Assembly: GCF_021369635.1 (NCBI RefSeq)
Contig: NZ_JAJNBZ010000003.1
Location: 1-24,000 of the forward strand
DNA: 24,000 nt
Origin: Paenibacillus profundus
Lineage (GTDB): Bacteria > Bacillota > Bacilli > Paenibacillales > Paenibacillaceae
Reading direction: 5' to 3'
Part shown: piece by piece, positions 6,000 through 23,688 of the stretch
How positions within the stretch are numbered: the first letter of the stretch is position 1
Layout: each line of letters starts with the position of its first letter
Notes under the pieces: generated by a model
Told to the model about the DNA's origin: nothing
Seen by the model: the letters and a program-made list of their open reading frames with translations, nothing else
Databases searched by the model: none
Translations under genes and position numbers: made by a program

Positions 6000-6140
6000 G
6001 CGATATACTGTTCATGAGTGTAAAAACACAGTTCGGTCGGTAGTCCGGACGCATCCGTCCATTCATAATACCGCGGATGTCAGTAACCTTCCCCCCTCGG
6101 GATGTCCGTCACTCGAAGTCTGATTGAGGGGGAACTGAAT
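6000..6140 (+). promoter_or_regulatory. Candidate yjdF-class (azaaromatic) riboswitch / SD-sequestering leader
   Basis: A leader of roughly 150 nt precedes a yjdF homologue, with a TATAAT hexamer at 5981-5986. Hairpin GGACG-catc-CGTCC at 6047-6060. Duplicated GGATGTC (6075-6081 and 6100-6106); either copy can pair with CATCC (6052-6056). TTCCCCCCTC (6089-6098) is complementary to the SD GAGGGGGAA (6126-6134). Class assignment rests on gene context, not on a model search. Confidence 0.4.
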
Positions 6141-19171: not shown

Positions 19172-19963
19172 TTATCGTTCCAGCTTGCCGCCGGCTTGCT
19201 CCAGCATATTGGCAATCTCCGTGAAGCCGCGTTCACGCGCATGGGCTAACGCCGTCACCCCTTTGCTGTCCGGAATGTTCACATCTGCTCCATGCTCGAT
19301 GAGAAGCTTCACCGCCTGCTGATGCTCCTTCCCGCCGCTGCCGAGCACGATCGCTTCCATCAAGGCGGTCCAGCCGAGATTATTCACATGGTTGACACCC
19401 ACATCCGACTCCGTTAGCAGGTACTTGATCACGTCAAGATGCGCATGCTCTGCCGCCGGAATGAGCGCCGTCCCGCCAAAGCGGTTCGTCAGCTTCGTGT
19501 CCGCTCCCGCCTCGATCGTCAGCTTCAGAATGTCGAACAATCCCTCCGCTCCCGCGTACAAGTATGGATTGTCCTTGTTGTGAGCCTGAATATTAATGTC
19601 AGCGCCGTGATCGATGAGCGACTTGACCGTCTTCGGGTAATTGCCGAGCGTTGCCAGCATGGCCGGGGTCCGGCCGCTGCCGTCCTGCGCATTAACGTCG
19701 GCCCCATCCTTAATAAGCCGGCTCACGTCTGCCGTCTTGCCCTTTTTGGCAGCATCCAGCAAAGCGTCGTTCAAAGCTCCCACATCCTTCCCGCCGAGCT
19801 CCTTGTTCAGCCTTGTTTCCGTCACCTGCTCATGCTTCGGACCGGCATTGCGATCATTGTTCGGTTTTACTTGAGTCTGGGCCCCGGAACGATTCTTGTC
19901 TGGATCGTCGGCACATCCCGAGAACATAAGAATCGACAGAGCCAATGCCATCACGCGCAGCAT
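19172..19963 (-). CDS. Ankyrin-repeat lipoprotein
   Basis: Signal peptide with lipobox MFSGC, followed by about 5-6 ankyrin repeats (G.TPLM.A...G....V..LI..GADVN pattern). SD GGGGGGA. It ends 19 nt before the amidohydrolase start. Confidence 0.8.
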   Translation of the reverse strand: MLRVMALALSILMFSGCADDPDKNRSGAQTQVKPNNDRNAGPKHEQVTETRLNKELGGKDVGALNDALLDAAKKGKTADVSRLIKDGADVNAQDGSGRTPAMLATLGNYPKTVKSLIDHGADINIQAHNKDNPYLYAGAEGLFDILKLTIEAGADTKLTNRFGGTALIPAAEHAHLDVIKYLLTESDVGVNHVNNLGWTALMEAIVLGSGGKEHQQAVKLLIEHGADVNIPDSKGVTALAHARERGFTEIANMLEQAGGKLER

Positions 19964-20233: not shown

Positions 20234-22261
20234 TCACCGCGAGCTCTCTGCCGTTGTCCCGGCTCCTAAATAATGCTGAAGGTGCTTTTTATTGATTTTA
20301 ATGCGCTGCTTTTCAATGAACACACCGACATTTCCCTTGGTGTCTTCTTCTTCACAGACGATGCCCTCACGCTTCAGATAAGAAACATATACGCTGTCGC
20401 CGGCTTCGAAGCGCTTGTTGACGGGAACACTGACCGACGGTTCGCCTGCTTGCTCCTCCGGCGCATCGGCAGTAGACGCTTGAGCCATCAAGGTTGAGGA
20501 ACCAGGCTGCGCGATTGCCACTCCGTCGAGGTATTCTGCTAATTCCGCCATCATCGGTTCCGCATATGGCCGCTCCGCAATAGGCACTGCTCCCATGTCA
20601 ATCGTGTCTTGAGACTGCTGAACTGGGCTCGCTTGCCAACTGTGACCATCGGGCTTCGCTCCGGCCGCTTCCGCTGACTTGCCTTCGCCTCCGGCCACGC
20701 CGTTCCCAAGCGGCAATGAGGCAGCTCCAAGCTCCTTCCTGCCTGCCGTAATTTCCTCCGATCGGGCAATGATAGCGGGAGAGATGCCCAGCTTCTGCGC
20801 GATGAGGAACGCGTAGCTATGTCCCGCTTCCCCGATGCGAAGCTGATAGAGCGGCTGCAGCGTAGCGGAATCGAACTCCATGCGGGCATTTTCGAATCCC
20901 GGAGCAAGCGCCGCATAATTTTTAATTTCATTGAAGTGCGTCGTCACCATTACAGTAGTCCCTCTGCGATGCAATTCTTCCAATATTGCTATCGACAGCG
21001 CGACGCCTTCGCCCGGATCGGTCCCGGACGCCATTTCGTCGATGAGGATAAGCGTTGAATCATCAGCATAGCTCAGCATGTCTATTATATTTTTAATGTG
21101 CGCGGAAAAGGTGCTGAGCGATTGCTCAATGCTCTGTCCGTCTCCGATGTCTGCCGCCACATGCTTGAATACCGCAAAGGTGCTTCGTTCCTCTACCGGT
21201 ACCAGCAGACCGGATTGAGCCATCAGCGTGAGCAGTCCAACCGTCTTCAAAGCAACTGTCTTCCCGCCAGTATTTGGCCCGGTAATTATCAGCGTTCGGT
21301 ACCCGCGTCCAATGCGGAATGTGAGCGGAACGGTGTCGCGGCCAAGCAGCGGATGCTTGCCTCCGCGAATGTCGACAACCCCTTCAATGTTCAGTCCCAC
21401 GTTGCGTCCGCCGATGGCAAGACCGTATTTTGCTTTGGCGAACAAGTAATCATACGTCCCGACCGTCTCCACATTCGAATTCAGTTCACGGGCATGCTGC
21501 TCCATGAGGTCGGTCAATTCGCTAAGCACTTTCGCCTCTTCTCTCGCTTCGTCCGCTCGCAATCCCGCCTGCTCATGCTGCATATGCGCAATTTCAGCCG
21601 GTTCCATGTATACGGTCTGACCGCTCGCCGATTCGTCCAGCGAGTTGCCTTTGAATTGCTTGCGGAACTCTTTCTTAATCGGGAGCACATAACGTCCTCC
21701 ACGCATGCTGACCAGATTCTCCTGCAGCAGCGTGCGGTATCTGCTCATTAAAGCTTCGATTTTGGACTTGATGCGATTTTCAACGGCGGCAAGCTTCTTC
21801 CGGATTTTGCTTAAGTCCTTGCTTGCCTCATCAGCGACCCGTCCATTGTGAATGCAACGTTCGATTTCGGATCTCAGCTTATCCAAATCATGCATGGATG
21901 CCGCATAGCCGCTCACCGTCGGAGCAATCTCGCTTTTGGCGATCATATACCTTCTAAGCTGGGCACAGCTTCGCAAAAACAAAAGGGTATGCGTAAAATC
22001 CGATTCGTTGAACATATATCCAGTCCCGAGCAGAGACCGCACCGGCTCGATTCCTTGCAAAGATGGCAGCGGCACGCTGGCCCCCTGCATGAGAAGGGTG
22101 TGCGCTTCCGCGGTTTCGTCAAGCGCCTTGCGTATTGCGTTCAAATCCGTCATAGGCTCCATCTTCTCGACGTGCTGTCTGCCCAAATAGGAGACGGCAT
22201 TTTCCATGACGCGCTCTTTGATTCTGTCGTACTCCAAACGCTGCAGCATTTTGTTATTCAT
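20234..22261 (-). CDS. MutS2-family ATPase paralogue lacking the Smr domain
   Basis: MutS2-like N-terminal and core region. Walker A is GPNTGGKT, Walker B is LILIDEMASGTDPGEG, and TTHF is present. A low-complexity linker of roughly 110 aa (A/G/P/E/S-rich) leads to a KOW-like tail (FEAGDSVYVSYLKREGIVCEEE..GNVGVFIEKQRIKINKKHL). No Smr (LDLHG-type) motif before the stop. SD AAGGAG lies 8 nt before ATG 22261. Confidence 0.8.
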   Translation of the reverse strand: MNNKMLQRLEYDRIKERVMENAVSYLGRQHVEKMEPMTDLNAIRKALDETAEAHTLLMQGASVPLPSLQGIEPVRSLLGTGYMFNESDFTHTLLFLRSCAQLRRYMIAKSEIAPTVSGYAASMHDLDKLRSEIERCIHNGRVADEASKDLSKIRKKLAAVENRIKSKIEALMSRYRTLLQENLVSMRGGRYVLPIKKEFRKQFKGNSLDESASGQTVYMEPAEIAHMQHEQAGLRADEAREEAKVLSELTDLMEQHARELNSNVETVGTYDYLFAKAKYGLAIGGRNVGLNIEGVVDIRGGKHPLLGRDTVPLTFRIGRGYRTLIITGPNTGGKTVALKTVGLLTLMAQSGLLVPVEERSTFAVFKHVAADIGDGQSIEQSLSTFSAHIKNIIDMLSYADDSTLILIDEMASGTDPGEGVALSIAILEELHRRGTTVMVTTHFNEIKNYAALAPGFENARMEFDSATLQPLYQLRIGEAGHSYAFLIAQKLGISPAIIARSEEITAGRKELGAASLPLGNGVAGGEGKSAEAAGAKPDGHSWQASPVQQSQDTIDMGAVPIAERPYAEPMMAELAEYLDGVAIAQPGSSTLMAQASTADAPEEQAGEPSVSVPVNKRFEAGDSVYVSYLKREGIVCEEEDTKGNVGVFIEKQRIKINKKHLQHYLGAGTTAESSR

Positions 22262-22286
22262 TGTTTTAGCTCCTTTAGAGTTTAGT

Positions 22287-22335
22287 AAAAAAATAAAAAA
22301 AAGGCAGAAGAAATGCGTAGATCGCATTCTCTGCC
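22287..22335 (-). terminator. Strong rho-independent terminator (T2) immediately upstream of the mutS2-like SD
   Basis: Minus strand: GGCAGAGAATGCG-atcta-CGCATTTCTTCTGCC followed by T8-A-T7. Confidence 0.8.
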
Positions 22336-22420
22336 TTTCGTTATACCTGCCTCAGATATACGTACCGACAAGCCGTAACGGTATAGCTGTCCTGCTAAGG
22401 ACGTACCGTTACAAGACTAT

Positions 22421-22450
22421 AAACAAAAAAACGTGCTGAAAAACAGCACG
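22421..22450 (-). terminator. Rho-independent terminator (T1)
   Basis: Minus strand: CGTGCTG-ttttt-CAGCACG followed by TTTTTTTGTTT. Confidence 0.7.
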
Positions 22451-22499
22451 GAGTCGGCTCGTATAGAGGCTAGATCTCGGGCGTTGGATGATATCCGCT

Positions 22500-22612
22500 G
22501 TTCTTAACTAAATCCAGAGGCTCGTTAACGGTATAAGAAAATAAACGTCAGCTATAACGCTGCATTTTAATCGTCAACTTAACCTCGATATGGAATTTGA
22601 TTAGTTAAGAAC
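22500..22612 (-). ncRNA. Structured leader element: 113-nt extended hairpin with three nested helices, class unknown
   Basis: P1 is GTTCTTAACTAA (22612-22601) paired with TTAGTTAAGAAC (22511-22500), 12 perfect bp. GAGGTT (22586-81) pairs with AGCCTC (22522-17). GTTGACG (22578-72) pairs with CGTTAAC (22530-24). I recognise no match to a known riboswitch or T-box signature. Confidence 0.45.
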
Positions 22613-22624
22613 GCTTACCAACAT
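22601..22624 (-). CDS. 7-codon upstream ORF (MLVSVLN) candidate leader peptide
   Basis: SD AAGGGGAG (22638-22631), 6 nt, then ATG TTG GTA AGC GTT CTT AAC TAA. Codons 5-7 and the stop codon form the 5' strand of helix P1. Confidence 0.3.
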   Translation of the reverse strand: MLVSVLN

Positions 22625-22655
22625 CAAGTTCTCCCCTTAATTGAATAATATCCCA

Positions 22656-22685
22656 ATCATACTAAATAATTATATGTTGCGTCAA
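22656..22685 (-). promoter_or_regulatory. Sigma-A type promoter candidate for the leader RNA
   Basis: Minus strand TTGACG (22685-22680), 18-nt spacer, TATGAT (22661-22656). It lies 35 nt downstream of the AraC-2 stop. Confidence 0.5.
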
Positions 22686-22719
22686 GTGATTGCCTCTCCA
22701 TATATGGCAGAAACGCTTC

Positions 22720-23688
22720 CTACGGTTGGCTCAATCCGTTAATCGGCGGCGCTTTCTTCTTGTATTGCGAAGGAGATACGCCAGTATGCCGCTTGAACAT
22801 GCGCGAGAAATACGCCAAATCATTGAAGCCGACGCCGAAGCAGATTTCCGTCACGGACATATCAGTTTCCACGAGCCATTCCGCTGCCTTGCGTACACGG
22901 AAATCAATCAAATAATCGTTAAAGGTTTTGCCTGTAAACCGTTTGAACAAGTAGCAAAAATACGTCTTCGACAAATTAAACTGCCGGCACAAACGCTCGA
23001 GCCGCAGCTCTTCCGCAAAATGCACATGAATATACTCCGTCACTGTGGTCATCAAATCGCGGTATTTCTCCACGCGATCGTCTTCCTCACTCGGTTTGTC
23101 GGCCAATTTCGTGTACTCGCGGATAATGACGGACAGCAGCTTCAAGAGGTTGGCTTTTAAGACCAATTCGAAATAACGCTTCGATTGACGATACTCCGCC
23201 AGCATCTCCTCAAGCAGACGGCTGACCTCCATATCTGCCTCGCCTGTGAGCACCACCTTCGGCGTAATCTGCTCCTCGTCGATAAGAAACTGCTCCAAAT
23301 AGGAGAAATCAAAGCAATCCTTGCTCCAATCCGCCTTCTCAAAACGCTCGTTAATAAAATGAGGCAGAAACTCGCAGCCGATGACTTCCATATCCTGACC
23401 AGGGATCATTTCGACGCGATGCACGGCAAACGGCGGAATGACAAACAAATTGCCTTTGACCATATTATACGTTCGGTGATTGATCGTATGCTTGAATTCA
23501 CCTTTCAGCACATACCAAATCTGTATGTAATCGTGCGTATGATCCCAGATGCTTCCGGTCGATTGATCCAATTTGTACATTTTACAAGGCAGATGAGCCT
23601 CCAGCTCTTGTTCCGAATGAAAAACGATGACATCGTTCGTTGTGCGAGAGGGGCCTTTGTCGCGCCTCACGTCATGTGACATGTTCAT
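22720..23688 (-). CDS. AraC/XylS-family regulator with cupin domain, paralogue of the 3531-4475 gene
   Basis: Collinear with the first AraC protein; roughly two-thirds of residues look identical by eye (HTHDYIQIWYVLKGEF.HTIN, VIPPFAVHRV, GCEFLPHFI, GFNDLAYFSRMFKRHTGVSPSQY). The start is ambiguous: GTG 23691, ATG 23688 or ATG 23682. Confidence 0.85.
   Translation of the reverse strand: MNMSHDVRRDKGPSRTTNDVIVFHSEQELEAHLPCKMYKLDQSTGSIWDHTHDYIQIWYVLKGEFKHTINHRTYNMVKGNLFVIPPFAVHRVEMIPGQDMEVIGCEFLPHFINERFEKADWSKDCFDFSYLEQFLIDEEQITPKVVLTGEADMEVSRLLEEMLAEYRQSKRYFELVLKANLLKLLSVIIREYTKLADKPSEEDDRVEKYRDLMTTVTEYIHVHFAEELRLERLCRQFNLSKTYFCYLFKRFTGKTFNDYLIDFRVRKAAEWLVETDMSVTEICFGVGFNDLAYFSRMFKRHTGVSPSQYKKKAPPINGLSQP

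What the first reader, a model, noticed from the sequence alone, without database searches (positions are those of the whole stretch)
22262..22690. uORF-gated structured leader with two tandem intrinsic terminators feeding an Smr-less MutS2 paralogue
Seen on the minus strand: a TTGACG-18-TATGAT promoter. Next comes a strong SD with a 7-codon uORF whose last four codons (GTTCTTAACTAA) form the 5' strand of a perfect 12-bp helix. That helix encloses two further nested helices, about 25 bp in total. An alternative 10/11 pairing, TATCGAGGTTA (22590-80) with TAGCCTCTATA (22472-62), cannot nest with that hairpin, so two conformations or a pseudoknot are possible. Downstream lie terminator T1 (22450-22421), a 9+5-bp hairpin GTAACGGTA.../...TACCGTTAC (22412-22375), a duplicated CGGTACGT octamer, and the very strong terminator T2 (22335-22287). 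T2 ends about 15 nt before the SD of the ATPase gene. I find no convincing promoter between T1 and the start codon, so the gene appears to depend on terminator read-through. Established knowledge: short uORF plus terminator leaders act as ribosome-stalling sensors for antibiotic-responsive genes in Firmicutes (erm, cat, vmlR, bmrCD; Term-seq, Dar et al. 2016). B. subtilis MutS2 senses ribosome collisions and splits ribosomes (Cerullo et al. 2022). Inference: this may be a translation-stress-inducible ribosome-rescue module, a coupling I have not seen described. I could not derive a clean terminator/antiterminator logic by hand.
Basis: partly seen in the sequence, partly recalled or inferred. 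Interest (0 to 1): 0.7.

Follow-up and report, generated by a model that had tools for sequence, protein, structure and literature searches.

The report
Conserved uORF attenuator before MutS2-like gene
A 400-base leader holding a seven-codon mini-gene, a likely polymerase pause site and two successive transcription stop signals is conserved in front of a ribosome-rescue-like ATPase gene across Paenibacillus and Brevibacillus, and it looks like an undescribed sensor of stalled ribosomes that may switch on a new kind of antibiotic or translation-stress defence.

Summary
On the minus strand, 22262-22690 contains a sigma-A promoter, a strong SD, a 7-codon uORF (MLVSVLN*), a 12-bp helix P1 made from the last four uORF codons, nested helices, and terminators T1 and T2. 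The ATG of a 675-aa Smr-less MutS2-like gene is at 22261.

It is not chance. The uORF is present in all 79 orthologous loci with upstream DNA (Paenibacillus, Brevibacillus). P1, a fixed-position TTNTTT pause-like motif, T1 and T2 are conserved in nearly all of them. Gene neighbourhoods vary. No Rfam family matches.

The same leader also precedes BpsA_C-like transferase genes and Eis-like acetyltransferase genes in metagenomes.

Best reading: a ribosome-dependent transcription attenuator of the vmlR/tlrB type. P1 and its extension sequester the whole uORF and a 24-nt strand X. With a ribosome held at the uORF start, folding predicts that X pairs first with the 5' strand of T1 and then with that of T2. 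This two-checkpoint logic is inferred, with modest statistical support, and is weak for T2 in this window.

The inducer and the protein's function are untested.

Verdict: new variant of a known kind.

The parts
22656..22685 (-). Sigma-A type promoter TTGACG-18-TATGAT
   Evidence: scores it 10 of 12. In 75 of 77 distinct orthologous upstream regions there is a promoter scoring at least 9 of 12. Its -10 hexamer ends a median of 32 nt (IQR 31-34) before the uORF ATG.
22631..22638 (-). Shine-Dalgarno of the uORF (AAGGGGAG), 6 nt before the ATG
   Evidence: AAGGAGAG followed by 6 nt (consensus ATTTTG) and the ATG is nearly invariant in 75 aligned leaders.
22601..22624 (-). 7-codon uORF ATG TTG GTA AGC GTT CTT AAC TAA (MLVSVLN*)
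   Evidence: All 79 loci with upstream DNA carry M-[S/L]-V-x-V-L-N-stop. The stop codon varies only among TAA, TAG and TGA. Codon 4 is free and lies in a bulge of P1.
22601..22612 (-). P1 core, 5' strand GTTCTTAACTAA (uORF codons 5-7 plus the stop)
   Evidence: The 12 pairs are 99-100% paired and 9 of them never vary. TGA stop codons are compensated by TCAG in L025, L034 and L076.
22500..22511 (-). P1 core, 3' strand TTAGTTAAGAAC
22513..22600 (-). P1 loop holding nested helix P2 and the small hairpin P3 (CAGC...GCTG, 22562-22549)
   Evidence: One search gives the fold. For the P2 strands, mean z is -2.2 against shuffles, and the native pairing beats cross-species pairing in 32 of 33 representatives.
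22538..22545 (-). T-rich TTTATTTT (TTNTTT, a NusG-type pause motif) just 3' of hairpin P3
   Evidence: TTNTTT occurs in 70 of 106 distinct P1 loops, against 37 expected. Its position is fixed: 59 nt after the stop codon and 28 nt (IQR 27-29) before the P1 3' strand. The motif definition comes from PMC12288461. Pausing itself was not tested.
22476..22499 (-). Strand X (AGCGGATATCATCCAACGCCCGAG). It is the 3' strand of the P1 extension and the proposed antiterminator strand for both T1 and T2.
   Evidence: GAUAUCA pairs with UGAUGUU over the uORF start. It is the best complement of the T1 5' strand in at least 55 of 77 leaders and is complementary to the T2 5' strand. Shuffle tests give mean z of about -1.
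22422..22451 (-). Intrinsic terminator T1 (CGTGCTG-TTTTT-CAGCACG followed by T7)
   Evidence: The CCG[T/C]GCTG core is invariant in 75 aligned leaders.
22453..22470 (-). 5' strand of the long-range helix that encloses T1 (GCCTCTATACGAGCCGAC)
   Evidence: One search gives the MFE structure. Family-wide, the pre-T1 region paired with the inter-terminator region averages -23.6 kcal/mol with mean z = -2.0, and the native pairing beats cross-species pairing in 29 of 33.
22349..22369 (-). 3' strand of the helix that encloses T1 (GTCGGTACGTATATCTGAGGC)
22375..22412 (-). Extra hairpin GTAACGGTA...TACCGTTAC between T1 and T2, a lineage-specific insertion
   Evidence: One search gives -15.2 kcal/mol. 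It is found only in the window and, in degenerate form, in L001 (P. apiarius).
22287..22335 (-). Intrinsic terminator T2 (GGCAGAGAATGCG-ATCTA-CGCATTTCTTCTGCC followed by T8 A T7)
   Evidence: A strong hairpin plus U-run downstream of T1 was found in 111 of 118 leaders examined. This includes leaders in front of other genes.
22270..22275 (-). Shine-Dalgarno AAGGAG of the MutS2-like gene
20234..22261 (-). Smr-less MutS2-like ATPase gene (675 aa)
   Evidence: TIGR01069 matches residues 2-508 at 597 bits, and Pfam finds only MutS_V. B. subtilis MutS2 (7qv3) aligns with residues 1-538. The C-terminal domain is KOW-like by fold. The sequence is 100% identical to a Paenibacillus profundus protein.

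Best explanation
This is a cis-acting, ribosome-dependent transcription attenuator built as anti-antiterminator / antiterminator / terminator. It uses the same logic as the Bacillus subtilis vmlR and tlrB leaders, but it belongs to a separate sequence family and has two terminators in series.

Proposed sequence of events:
1. Transcription starts about 25 nt before a strongly initiating 7-codon uORF.
2. RNA polymerase probably pauses at a hairpin plus TTNTTT site about 28 nt before it makes the 3' strand of P1. This gives a ribosome time to load on the uORF.
3. If the uORF is empty when the 3' strand emerges, a roughly 30-bp irregular helix forms (P1 plus its extension). It buries the uORF from start codon to stop codon, so no new ribosome can load, and it also buries the 24-nt strand X. 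T1 then forms and most transcripts end there. Any leak-through ends at T2.
4. If a ribosome or initiation complex is held on the uORF, X stays free. Folding predicts this works best at or near the start codon. X pairs with the 5' strand of T1 and blocks that terminator.
5. After read-through, a covarying helix closes around T1. X, extended by that helix, then pairs with the 5' strand of T2 and blocks it too. Two checkpoints about 100-150 nt apart would let only long-lived stalls express the gene.

Shown: anatomy, conservation and complementarity.
Inferred: pausing, the switch itself, the inducer, and the output.
The likely output is a MutS2-type ribosome-acting ATPase that has KOW but no Smr. 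In other genomes the same leader precedes amine-modifying enzymes.
For: - The uORF and its SD are present in all 79 loci that have upstream DNA. The start codon is invariant, the stop varies only among stop codons, and codon 4 is free.
- P1, its extension and T1 are 93.5% paired, against 31-46% when the partners are slid.
- P2 and the helix flanking T1 keep complementarity while their sequences change: 32 of 33 and 29 of 33 native pairings beat cross-species pairings.
- TTNTTT sits at a fixed position, in 70 of 106 loops against 37 expected.
- The promoter position is conserved, and there is no promoter between T1 and the gene.
- X is the best complement of the T1 5' strand in at least 55 of 77 leaders. 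Within a T1 5' flank that is the same in both clades (AUUUCCGC), the L066/L071/L073/L077 clade carries GCGGAAAU in X, giving 8 contiguous pairs, where the L050 clade carries GCGGAUAU, giving 5. This is a change on one side only.
- X is complementary to the T2 5' strand, with UGCC/GGCA replaced by CGCC/GGCG.
- Nascent-RNA folds show X pairing with T1-5' in 25 of 33 leaders and with T2-5' in 19 of 33 when the uORF is masked. When it is free the figures are 1 of 33 and 4 of 33. Shuffled terminator strands give 10.2 and 8.5 of 33.
- A footprint at the start codon gives 31 of 33 and 25 of 33. A footprint at the stop codon gives 4 and 5 of 33.
- The same leader, including T1 and T2, precedes unrelated genes (BpsA_C-like, Eis-like). 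This is as expected for a portable sensor.
- Known analogues: vmlR (PMC9226507), tlrB (PMC6851288) and HflXr (PMC6310831).
Against: - Thermodynamically, T1 and T2 outcompete the X pairings. The MFE of the leader folded through T1 keeps T1 even with the uORF masked, and T2 is formed in the full-leader MFE. X duplexes are only -8 to -12 kcal/mol, against -10 to -28 for the terminators.
- Shuffle tests on isolated strands are modest: mean z about -1, and only 14-28% of leaders are individually significant. Covariation is weak, at 17-20 of 33.
- In this window the predicted X:T2 pairing covers only 3 of 13 nt.
- The invariance of the P1 core at synonymous sites and on both strands is not explained by the model.
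- The representatives are phylogenetically related, so the counts overstate independence.
- There are no expression data.
Confidence: 0.6

Rival explanations
1. The leader works by processive antitermination. The conserved structured leader RNA, alone or with a factor, modifies RNA polymerase so that it ignores both T1 and T2, as EAR or put RNAs and LoaP-type systems do. On this view the uORF only tunes the folding of that RNA.
For: - Two strong terminators in series are conserved even in front of different genes.
- The local antiterminator pairings are weaker than the terminators.
- The P1 core is invariant on both strands, which suggests sequence-specific recognition.
Against: - No Rfam family matches, EAR included if it is in the library.
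- The switch predicted from uORF masking is specific relative to shuffled strands.
- The variable P2 and P3 show no conserved loop or junction nucleotides of the kind a polymerase-binding RNA would need.
- No NusG-paralogue gene is linked in the variable neighbourhoods.
Confidence: 0.1
2. The leader is a ligand- or protein-binding riboswitch-like element. The P1-P2-P3 structure senses a metabolite or a protein directly, and the uORF is incidental.
For: The fold is highly stable (z = -8.2). The long helices are conserved. The associated genes (BpsA_C-like, Eis-like) could point to a polyamine-type ligand.
Against: - The SD, its spacing, the ATG and a stop codon that changes only to other stop codons are conserved in 79 of 79 loci.
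- Conserved nucleotides lie in the uORF, P1, X and T1, not in junctions or loops. P2 and P3 vary freely in sequence and length, with loops from 84 to 261 nt.
- No Rfam match.
Confidence: 0.1
3. The roughly 200-nt RNA ending at T1 is an independent small RNA or micro-protein gene. Its position in front of the MutS2-like gene has no regulatory meaning.
For: T1 is a good terminator right after a self-contained structured RNA that has its own conserved promoter. Attenuator-derived sRNAs are known to act in trans.
Against: - The element is always on the same strand, directly upstream of a gene, with no intervening promoter.
- It travels with the gene through variable neighbourhoods.
- It recurs in the same arrangement before two other gene families.
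- The helix that spans T1 covaries, so read-through transcripts are under selection.
Confidence: 0.07
4. The ribosome stalls at termination on the nascent peptide ...V-L-N-stop in response to a small molecule. The candidates (a polyamine, a termination inhibitor such as apidaecin-type peptides, or polycationic antibiotics) are suggested from general knowledge and were not checked here. On this view that stall, not a start-codon stall, is the inducing event.
For: - V-L-N-stop is invariant in 78 of 79 protein-anchored loci, while the N-terminal residues vary.
- Associated genes include an Eis-like amine acetyltransferase and a BpsA_C-like aminopropyl/methyl-transferase.
- Precedents from general knowledge: MAGDIS, SpeFL and TnaC. 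MsrDL is described in PMC10314930.
Against: - With a footprint at the stop codon, X re-pairs with the exposed start region and the predicted switch is lost (4-5 of 33).
- Codons 5-7 are invariant at synonymous sites too, so the constraint is at least partly at the RNA level.
- The metagenome loci were selected using this very motif, so their invariance carries no information.
Confidence: 0.13

Closest known systems
Bacillus subtilis vmlR leader (Takada et al. 2022, PMC9226507)
   Same: An SD-driven short uORF lies inside a first stem-loop that acts as anti-antiterminator. A pause hairpin with a NusG TTNTTT motif follows, then an intrinsic terminator. A ribosome stalled on the uORF frees an antiterminator strand. 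The default state is off.
   Different: There is no sequence or Rfam relationship. Here the uORF has 7 conserved codons rather than 3, and it is wholly base-paired from start to stop codon. The pause hairpin lies inside the P1 loop. A second strong intrinsic terminator stands where vmlR has an SD-sequestering hairpin. The regulated gene is not an ABCF.
Bacillus subtilis tlrB (yxjB) leader (Yakhnin et al. 2019, PMC6851288)
   Same: Both combine a leader peptide, NusG-dependent pausing that gives time for leader translation, and drug-dependent ribosome stalling that controls attenuation.
   Different: The leader peptide and the structures differ. tlrB combines transcription and translation attenuation with one terminator. 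The inducer (tylosin) is known there and unknown here.
Listeria HflXr (lmo0762) under a uORF/terminator leader (Duval et al. 2018, PMC6310831)
   Same: In both, a paralogue of a housekeeping ribosome-splitting factor sits behind an antibiotic-responsive attenuator. The logic is that a stalled ribosome induces a ribosome-recycling factor.
   Different: The effector there is a GTPase (HflX family), not a MutS2-type ABC-like ATPase. The leader is unrelated. The resistance phenotype is shown there and untested here.
Bacillus subtilis MutS2 / RqcU (Cerullo et al. 2022; Park et al. 2023, PMC10897456; PDB 7qv3, 8r55)
   Same: The N-terminal core and the MutS domain V ATPase align over residues 1-538 (E = 1e-108). 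The C-terminal barrel is closest by fold to the MutS2 KOW domain.
   Different: There is no Smr domain. The region between the ATPase and KOW is a low-complexity linker that does not align with B. subtilis MutS2. The window's copy also lacks the roughly 45-aa tail found in most family members. According to the abstract of PMC10897456, recruitment of MutS2 to collisions uses both SMR and KOW, so recruitment here may differ.
Classical E. coli trp-type 1:2 / 2:3 / 3:4 attenuator (textbook)
   Same: Ribosome position on a leader ORF decides which of several mutually exclusive helices forms ahead of a terminator.
   Different: There are no regulatory codons for an amino acid. Strand 2 (X) appears to be used against two successive terminators.

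Membership tests
Leader-peptide (uORF) transcription attenuators of Bacillota (vmlR / tlrB / msrD / bmrCD / HflXr type) | Short ORF with its own Shine-Dalgarno in the 5' leader | tested here: met
   SD plus a 7-codon uORF is present in 79 of 79 loci with upstream DNA.
Leader-peptide (uORF) transcription attenuators of Bacillota (vmlR / tlrB / msrD / bmrCD / HflXr type) | Intrinsic terminator between the uORF and the regulated gene, with no internal promoter | tested here: met
   There are two terminators (T1, T2) and no promoter-like site between them and the ATG.
Leader-peptide (uORF) transcription attenuators of Bacillota (vmlR / tlrB / msrD / bmrCD / HflXr type) | Mutually exclusive anti-antiterminator, antiterminator and terminator pairings, selected by ribosome occupancy of the uORF | tested here: inconclusive
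   The anti-antiterminator (P1 plus its extension) is well supported. The antiterminator X is supported by nascent-RNA folds, 25 of 33 and 19 of 33 against 10 and 8.5 in shuffles. Strand-level z is only about -1, and the terminators are more stable.
Leader-peptide (uORF) transcription attenuators of Bacillota (vmlR / tlrB / msrD / bmrCD / HflXr type) | Pause hairpin with a NusG TTNTTT motif (a feature of vmlR and tlrB, not of all members) | tested here: met
   The motif sits at a fixed position in 70 of 106 loops against 37 expected. Actual pausing is not testable here.
Leader-peptide (uORF) transcription attenuators of Bacillota (vmlR / tlrB / msrD / bmrCD / HflXr type) | Read-through induced by a ribosome-stalling drug or stress | not testable with these tools
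   This needs Term-seq, Northern blots or reporters with and without inhibitors.
MutS2 (TIGR01069, endonuclease MutS2 / RqcU) | N-terminal core plus MutS domain V ATPase | tested here: met
MutS2 (TIGR01069, endonuclease MutS2 / RqcU) | KOW domain | tested here: met
   The AF2 model has core pLDDT of 85-89. The top Foldseek hits are 8r55_z and 9a5o_B (MutS2), then NusG and Spt5 KOW domains, but E-values are only 4e-3 to 5e-2. Sequence searches did not detect the domain.
MutS2 (TIGR01069, endonuclease MutS2 / RqcU) | C-terminal Smr nuclease domain | tested here: not met
   There is no PF01713 in the window protein or in any of 120 listed homologues. The TIGR01069 match stops at model position 514 of 790.
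MutS2 (TIGR01069, endonuclease MutS2 / RqcU) | It is a second copy beside a canonical MutS2 in the same genome (the 'paralogue' claim) | not tested
   Only 24 kb of this genome and 8-kb loci of the others were available.
Any curated RNA family (Rfam 15: riboswitches, T-box, ribosomal leaders, EAR and others) | Covariance-model match | tested here: not met
   There was no hit at gathering score or at E <= 10 on 22200-22760. There was none on six other leaders.
MITE or other mobile inverted-repeat element | Multiple dispersed copies bounded by terminal inverted repeats | tested here: not met
   There is one copy per locus, always at the same place relative to the gene. Plant-derived repeats that share the 12-nt inverted repeat are unrelated.

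The most novel reading that the evidence does not exclude
The leader defines a previously unrecognised regulon-type sensor in Paenibacillaceae. A single antiterminator strand is used against two terminators in series, which times how long a ribosome stays stuck on a mini-ORF. Through this it switches on a MutS2-type (KOW-only) ribosome-acting ATPase. That ATPase would be a new class of inducible defence against ribosome-targeting compounds, alongside amine-modifying enzymes (Eis-like, BpsA-like) controlled by the same sensor.
Probability: 0.3. Interest if true: 0.85.

Novelty: new variant of a known kind. Interest (0 to 1): 0.7.

Why it matters
- Ribosome-stalling attenuators reliably flag genes that protect translation (erm, ABCF, HflXr).
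- Finding one conserved across at least three genera in front of an Smr-less MutS2 homologue gives a directly testable prediction. MutS2-type ATPases may act as inducible rescue or resistance factors, not only as housekeeping collision sensors.
- The same sensor in front of Eis-like and BpsA_C-like enzymes gives a handle on the inducer.
- The tandem-terminator design, if it works as inferred, would be a simple persistence filter that lowers leakiness. That is of general interest for RNA regulation and for synthetic biology.
- The family is absent from Rfam. These genes are currently annotated as 'endonuclease MutS2' or 'DNA mismatch repair protein MutS', which hides all of this.

Tried and rejected
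1. Rfam at gathering score and at permissive thresholds, on the window and on six other leaders: nothing at the leader.
2. RNAalifold on a MAFFT alignment recovered only P1 and T1, because the variable parts are not structurally aligned. I replaced it with per-sequence duplex and fold tests.
3. MFE of the leader folded through T1, with the uORF masked, never loses T1. The antiterminator cannot be argued from equilibrium folding alone.
4. I tested whether the ATG inside T2 starts an N-terminally extended protein. The in-frame open extension is not conserved.
6. Plasmid search with the leader: no match.
7. In the metagenome pattern scan, about 25 'MVLN*' hits and some others proved to be plant repeat elements sharing the 12-nt inverted repeat. 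L156 encodes a plant lectin receptor kinase. These were discarded.
8. Sequence search of the C-terminal 73 aa against the PDB found nothing. Only the fold comparison showed the KOW-like barrel.
9. Literature searches for a MutS2 paralogue with a leader, uORF or antibiotic link found nothing relevant.
Full report
**What is in the window**

All features are on the minus strand. Downstream of an AraC-family gene (stop at 22720) lie, in order:
- a TTGACG-18-TATGAT promoter at 22685-22656;
- SD AAGGGGAG at 22638-22631;
- a 7-codon uORF at 22624-22601 (MLVSVLN*);
- a large hairpin whose outer 12 bp pair uORF codons 5-7 plus the stop (22612-22601) with 22511-22500;
- terminator T1 (22451-22422);
- a hairpin at 22412-22375;
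- terminator T2 (22335-22287);
- SD AAGGAG and the ATG at 22261 of a 675-aa protein.

The 406-nt leader folds far better than shuffles, z = -8.2. No promoter-like site lies between T1 and the ATG. Rfam 15 gives nothing at gathering score or at E <= 10.

**The gene**

- TIGR01069 (MutS2) matches residues 2-508 only. Pfam finds only MutS_V and no Smr.
- B. subtilis MutS2 (7qv3) aligns with residues 1-538.
- After a low-complexity linker comes a small domain. AlphaFold models it as a five-stranded barrel. Its best structural matches are the MutS2 chains of 8r55 and 9a5o, then NusG and Spt5 KOW domains, at weak E-values.
- The protein is 100% identical to one from Paenibacillus profundus. 120 listed homologues from Paenibacillus, Brevibacillus and Aneurinibacillus are 626-762 aa long and all lack Smr.
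- Most of them carry a further conserved tail of about 45 aa. The window's copy and P. apiarius lack it.
- I could not test whether a canonical MutS2 coexists in the same genomes.

**Conservation**

A protein-anchored scan of one genome per species returned 80 loci. Blastn of the leader shows that positions 83-300 (22638-22421, from the SD to the T1 tail) are 70-76% identical upstream of orthologues in other genera. The part after T1 matches in full only in P. apiarius, and the T2 segment alone also in six other loci.

- All 79 loci with upstream DNA have the uORF M-[S/L]-V-x-V-L-N-stop behind AAGGAGAG and a 6-nt spacer.
- GTTCTTAAC is invariant in 78 of 79 loci. Its partner TTAGTTAAGAAC was recognisable, allowing up to two mismatches, in 78 of 79.
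- The stop codon is TAA, TAG or TGA and never a sense codon. TGA is compensated by TCAG.
- Codon 4 is free.
- A promoter scoring at least 9 of 12 lies with its -10 hexamer 32 nt (IQR 31-34) before the uORF ATG in 75 of 77 distinct upstream regions.
- Flanking genes differ between loci, so leader plus gene is an autonomous module.

**Structure**

On the 75-sequence alignment, P1, its extension over the start codon, the inner helix and T1 (35 pairs) are 93.5% paired. Slid partners give 31-46%. Because the strands hardly vary, true double changes are few, 6 pairs.

The variable helices give better covariation evidence:
- The two P2 strands inside the P1 loop: mean z = -2.2, and native pairing beats cross-species pairing in 32 of 33.
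- The region just before T1 with the region just after it: mean -23.6 kcal/mol, z = -2.0, 29 of 33.

So read-through transcripts form a selected helix that encloses T1. Inside the P1 loop, a small hairpin is followed by TTNTTT in 70 of 106 distinct loops (37 expected). Its position is fixed, 28 nt (IQR 27-29) before the P1 3' strand. This is the B. subtilis NusG pause motif (PMC12288461). Pausing itself is inferred.

**Terminator logic**

The 24 nt after P1 (strand X, 22499-22476) pair with the uORF start region (UGAUGUC with GAUAUCA). The divergent leader L151 has GGAUGUCUG with CGGGCAUCC instead.

- X is also the best complement of the T1 5' strand in at least 55 of 77 leaders.
- X is complementary to the T2 5' strand (GCG/CGU, UCAU/AUGA, UGCC/GGCA or CGCC/GGCG).
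- On 29 representatives each of these three pairings is better than shuffles by about 1 SD. Control strand pairs give z of about 0. Native pairings beat cross-species pairings only weakly.

Nascent transcripts were folded after cutting just past each terminator's 5' strand:

| uORF state | X pairs with T1-5' | X pairs with T2-5' |
|---|---|---|
| Free | 1 of 33 | 4 of 33 |
| Masked (whole uORF) | 25 of 33 | 19 of 33 |
| Masked, terminator strand shuffled | 10.2 of 33 | 8.5 of 33 |
| Footprint at the start codon | 31 of 33 | 25 of 33 |
| Footprint at the stop codon | 4 of 33 | 5 of 33 |

With the footprint at the stop codon, X re-pairs with the exposed start region.

Against the model:
- Equilibrium folding keeps T1 and T2.
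- The X duplexes are weaker than the terminators.
- In this window X:T2 covers only 3 of 13 nt.

**Wider distribution**

A metagenome pattern scan returned 120 loci.
- 51 have the MutS2-like gene downstream.
- About a dozen have the same leader (uORF, P1, X, T1, T2) before a roughly 400-aa BpsA_C-domain protein.
- Two have it before an Eis-like GNAT acetyltransferase.
- The rest are mostly unrelated plant repeats.
- A T2-type hairpin plus U-run was found in 111 of 118 leaders examined.

The leader is therefore a portable sensor. The tandem terminators are part of it.

**Interpretation**

The closest known system is the vmlR leader. It has a uORF inside an anti-antiterminator stem, a NusG pause hairpin, and a terminator relieved by a ribosome stalled on the uORF (PMC9226507). 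tlrB (PMC6851288) and HflXr (PMC6310831) are further analogues.

This leader is a separate family. It has a conserved heptapeptide uORF that is fully sequestered, and two terminators apparently opposed by one strand. I read this as a two-checkpoint filter for long-lived stalls.

The inducer is unknown. The fold model favours agents that arrest ribosomes at the start codon. The Eis-like and BpsA-like partners hint at amine-rich compounds. Literature searches found no description of this leader or of an inducible MutS2 homologue.

- The alternative pairing 22590-80 with 22472-62 is not conserved.
- The 22412-22375 hairpin and the CGGTACGT repeat are lineage-specific.
- The ATG inside T2 does not define a conserved longer ORF.

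Noticed in passing
window 6010-6125 (+): There is a full-length azaaromatic (yjdF) riboswitch aptamer, RF01764, at 81.4 bits with E = 2e-15. It is the only Rfam hit in the window.
   Followed up: no
window 20234-20330 (-); compare P0004-P0120: The window's MutS2-like protein and that of P. apiarius end right after the KOW-like domain. They lack the conserved tail of about 45 aa (ELYPDDYDxDIVFETKENRKKRKLMxRKHVEG) present in most family members. No remnant of the tail is found in any frame downstream.
   Followed up: partly
L093, L101, L112, L120, L124, L128, L137, L151, L176, L179, L188, L194 (BpsA_C-like); L114, L195 (Eis-like): The same uORF/P1/T1/T2 leader precedes a protein of about 400 aa with a wHTH-like N-terminus, a BpsA_C domain, a DPPY motif and a C-terminal zinc ribbon. 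It also precedes an Eis-type GNAT acetyltransferase. L101, L124 and L128 have an extra short ORF between T2 and the gene.
   Followed up: partly
L081, L083-L085, L088, L097, L156 and about 20 other metagenome loci: These loci hold a repeat family with the same 12-nt inverted repeat (GTTCTTAACTAA...TTAGTTAAGAAC) and an apparent 'MVLN*' mini-ORF. It lies in DNA with almost no bacterial-type ORFs, and L156 encodes a plant lectin receptor kinase. It is probably a plant MITE and a false positive of the pattern scan.
   Followed up: partly
L013:2560-2800: The P1 loop of Paenibacillus ginsengihumi is 261 nt instead of about 90. It contains two copies of a unit of roughly 50 nt (GGCGACGACYGATGACGAGAGA..TCATTCGTCATAGGCG). 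This is an insertion or duplication tolerated inside the leader.
   Followed up: no
window 19172-19963 (-): The gene just downstream of the MutS2-like gene encodes a 263-aa ankyrin-repeat protein (Ank_2, E = 2e-31), an uncommon family in bacteria. It is present in P. apiarius (L001) but not at most other loci.
   Followed up: no
L038 (DASQNU010000009.1) and L072 (JBBOTQ010000005.1): One record is titled 'Candidatus Bathyarchaeia archaeon' and another 'Priestia sp.'. Both carry Brevibacillus- or Paenibacillus-type loci with the leader. This suggests mis-binning or mislabelling of those assemblies.
   Followed up: no
L114:12999-13128 (+): A c-di-AMP riboswitch (RF00379, 97.6 bits) lies on the contig that carries the Eis-like locus.
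   Followed up: no
family-wide; window 22601-22612 and 22500-22511: This is unexplained. The P1 core is invariant on both strands, even at synonymous codon positions (GTT CTT AAC), across genera. Other helices of the same leader covary freely. Neither pairing alone nor the peptide alone accounts for this.
   Followed up: partly
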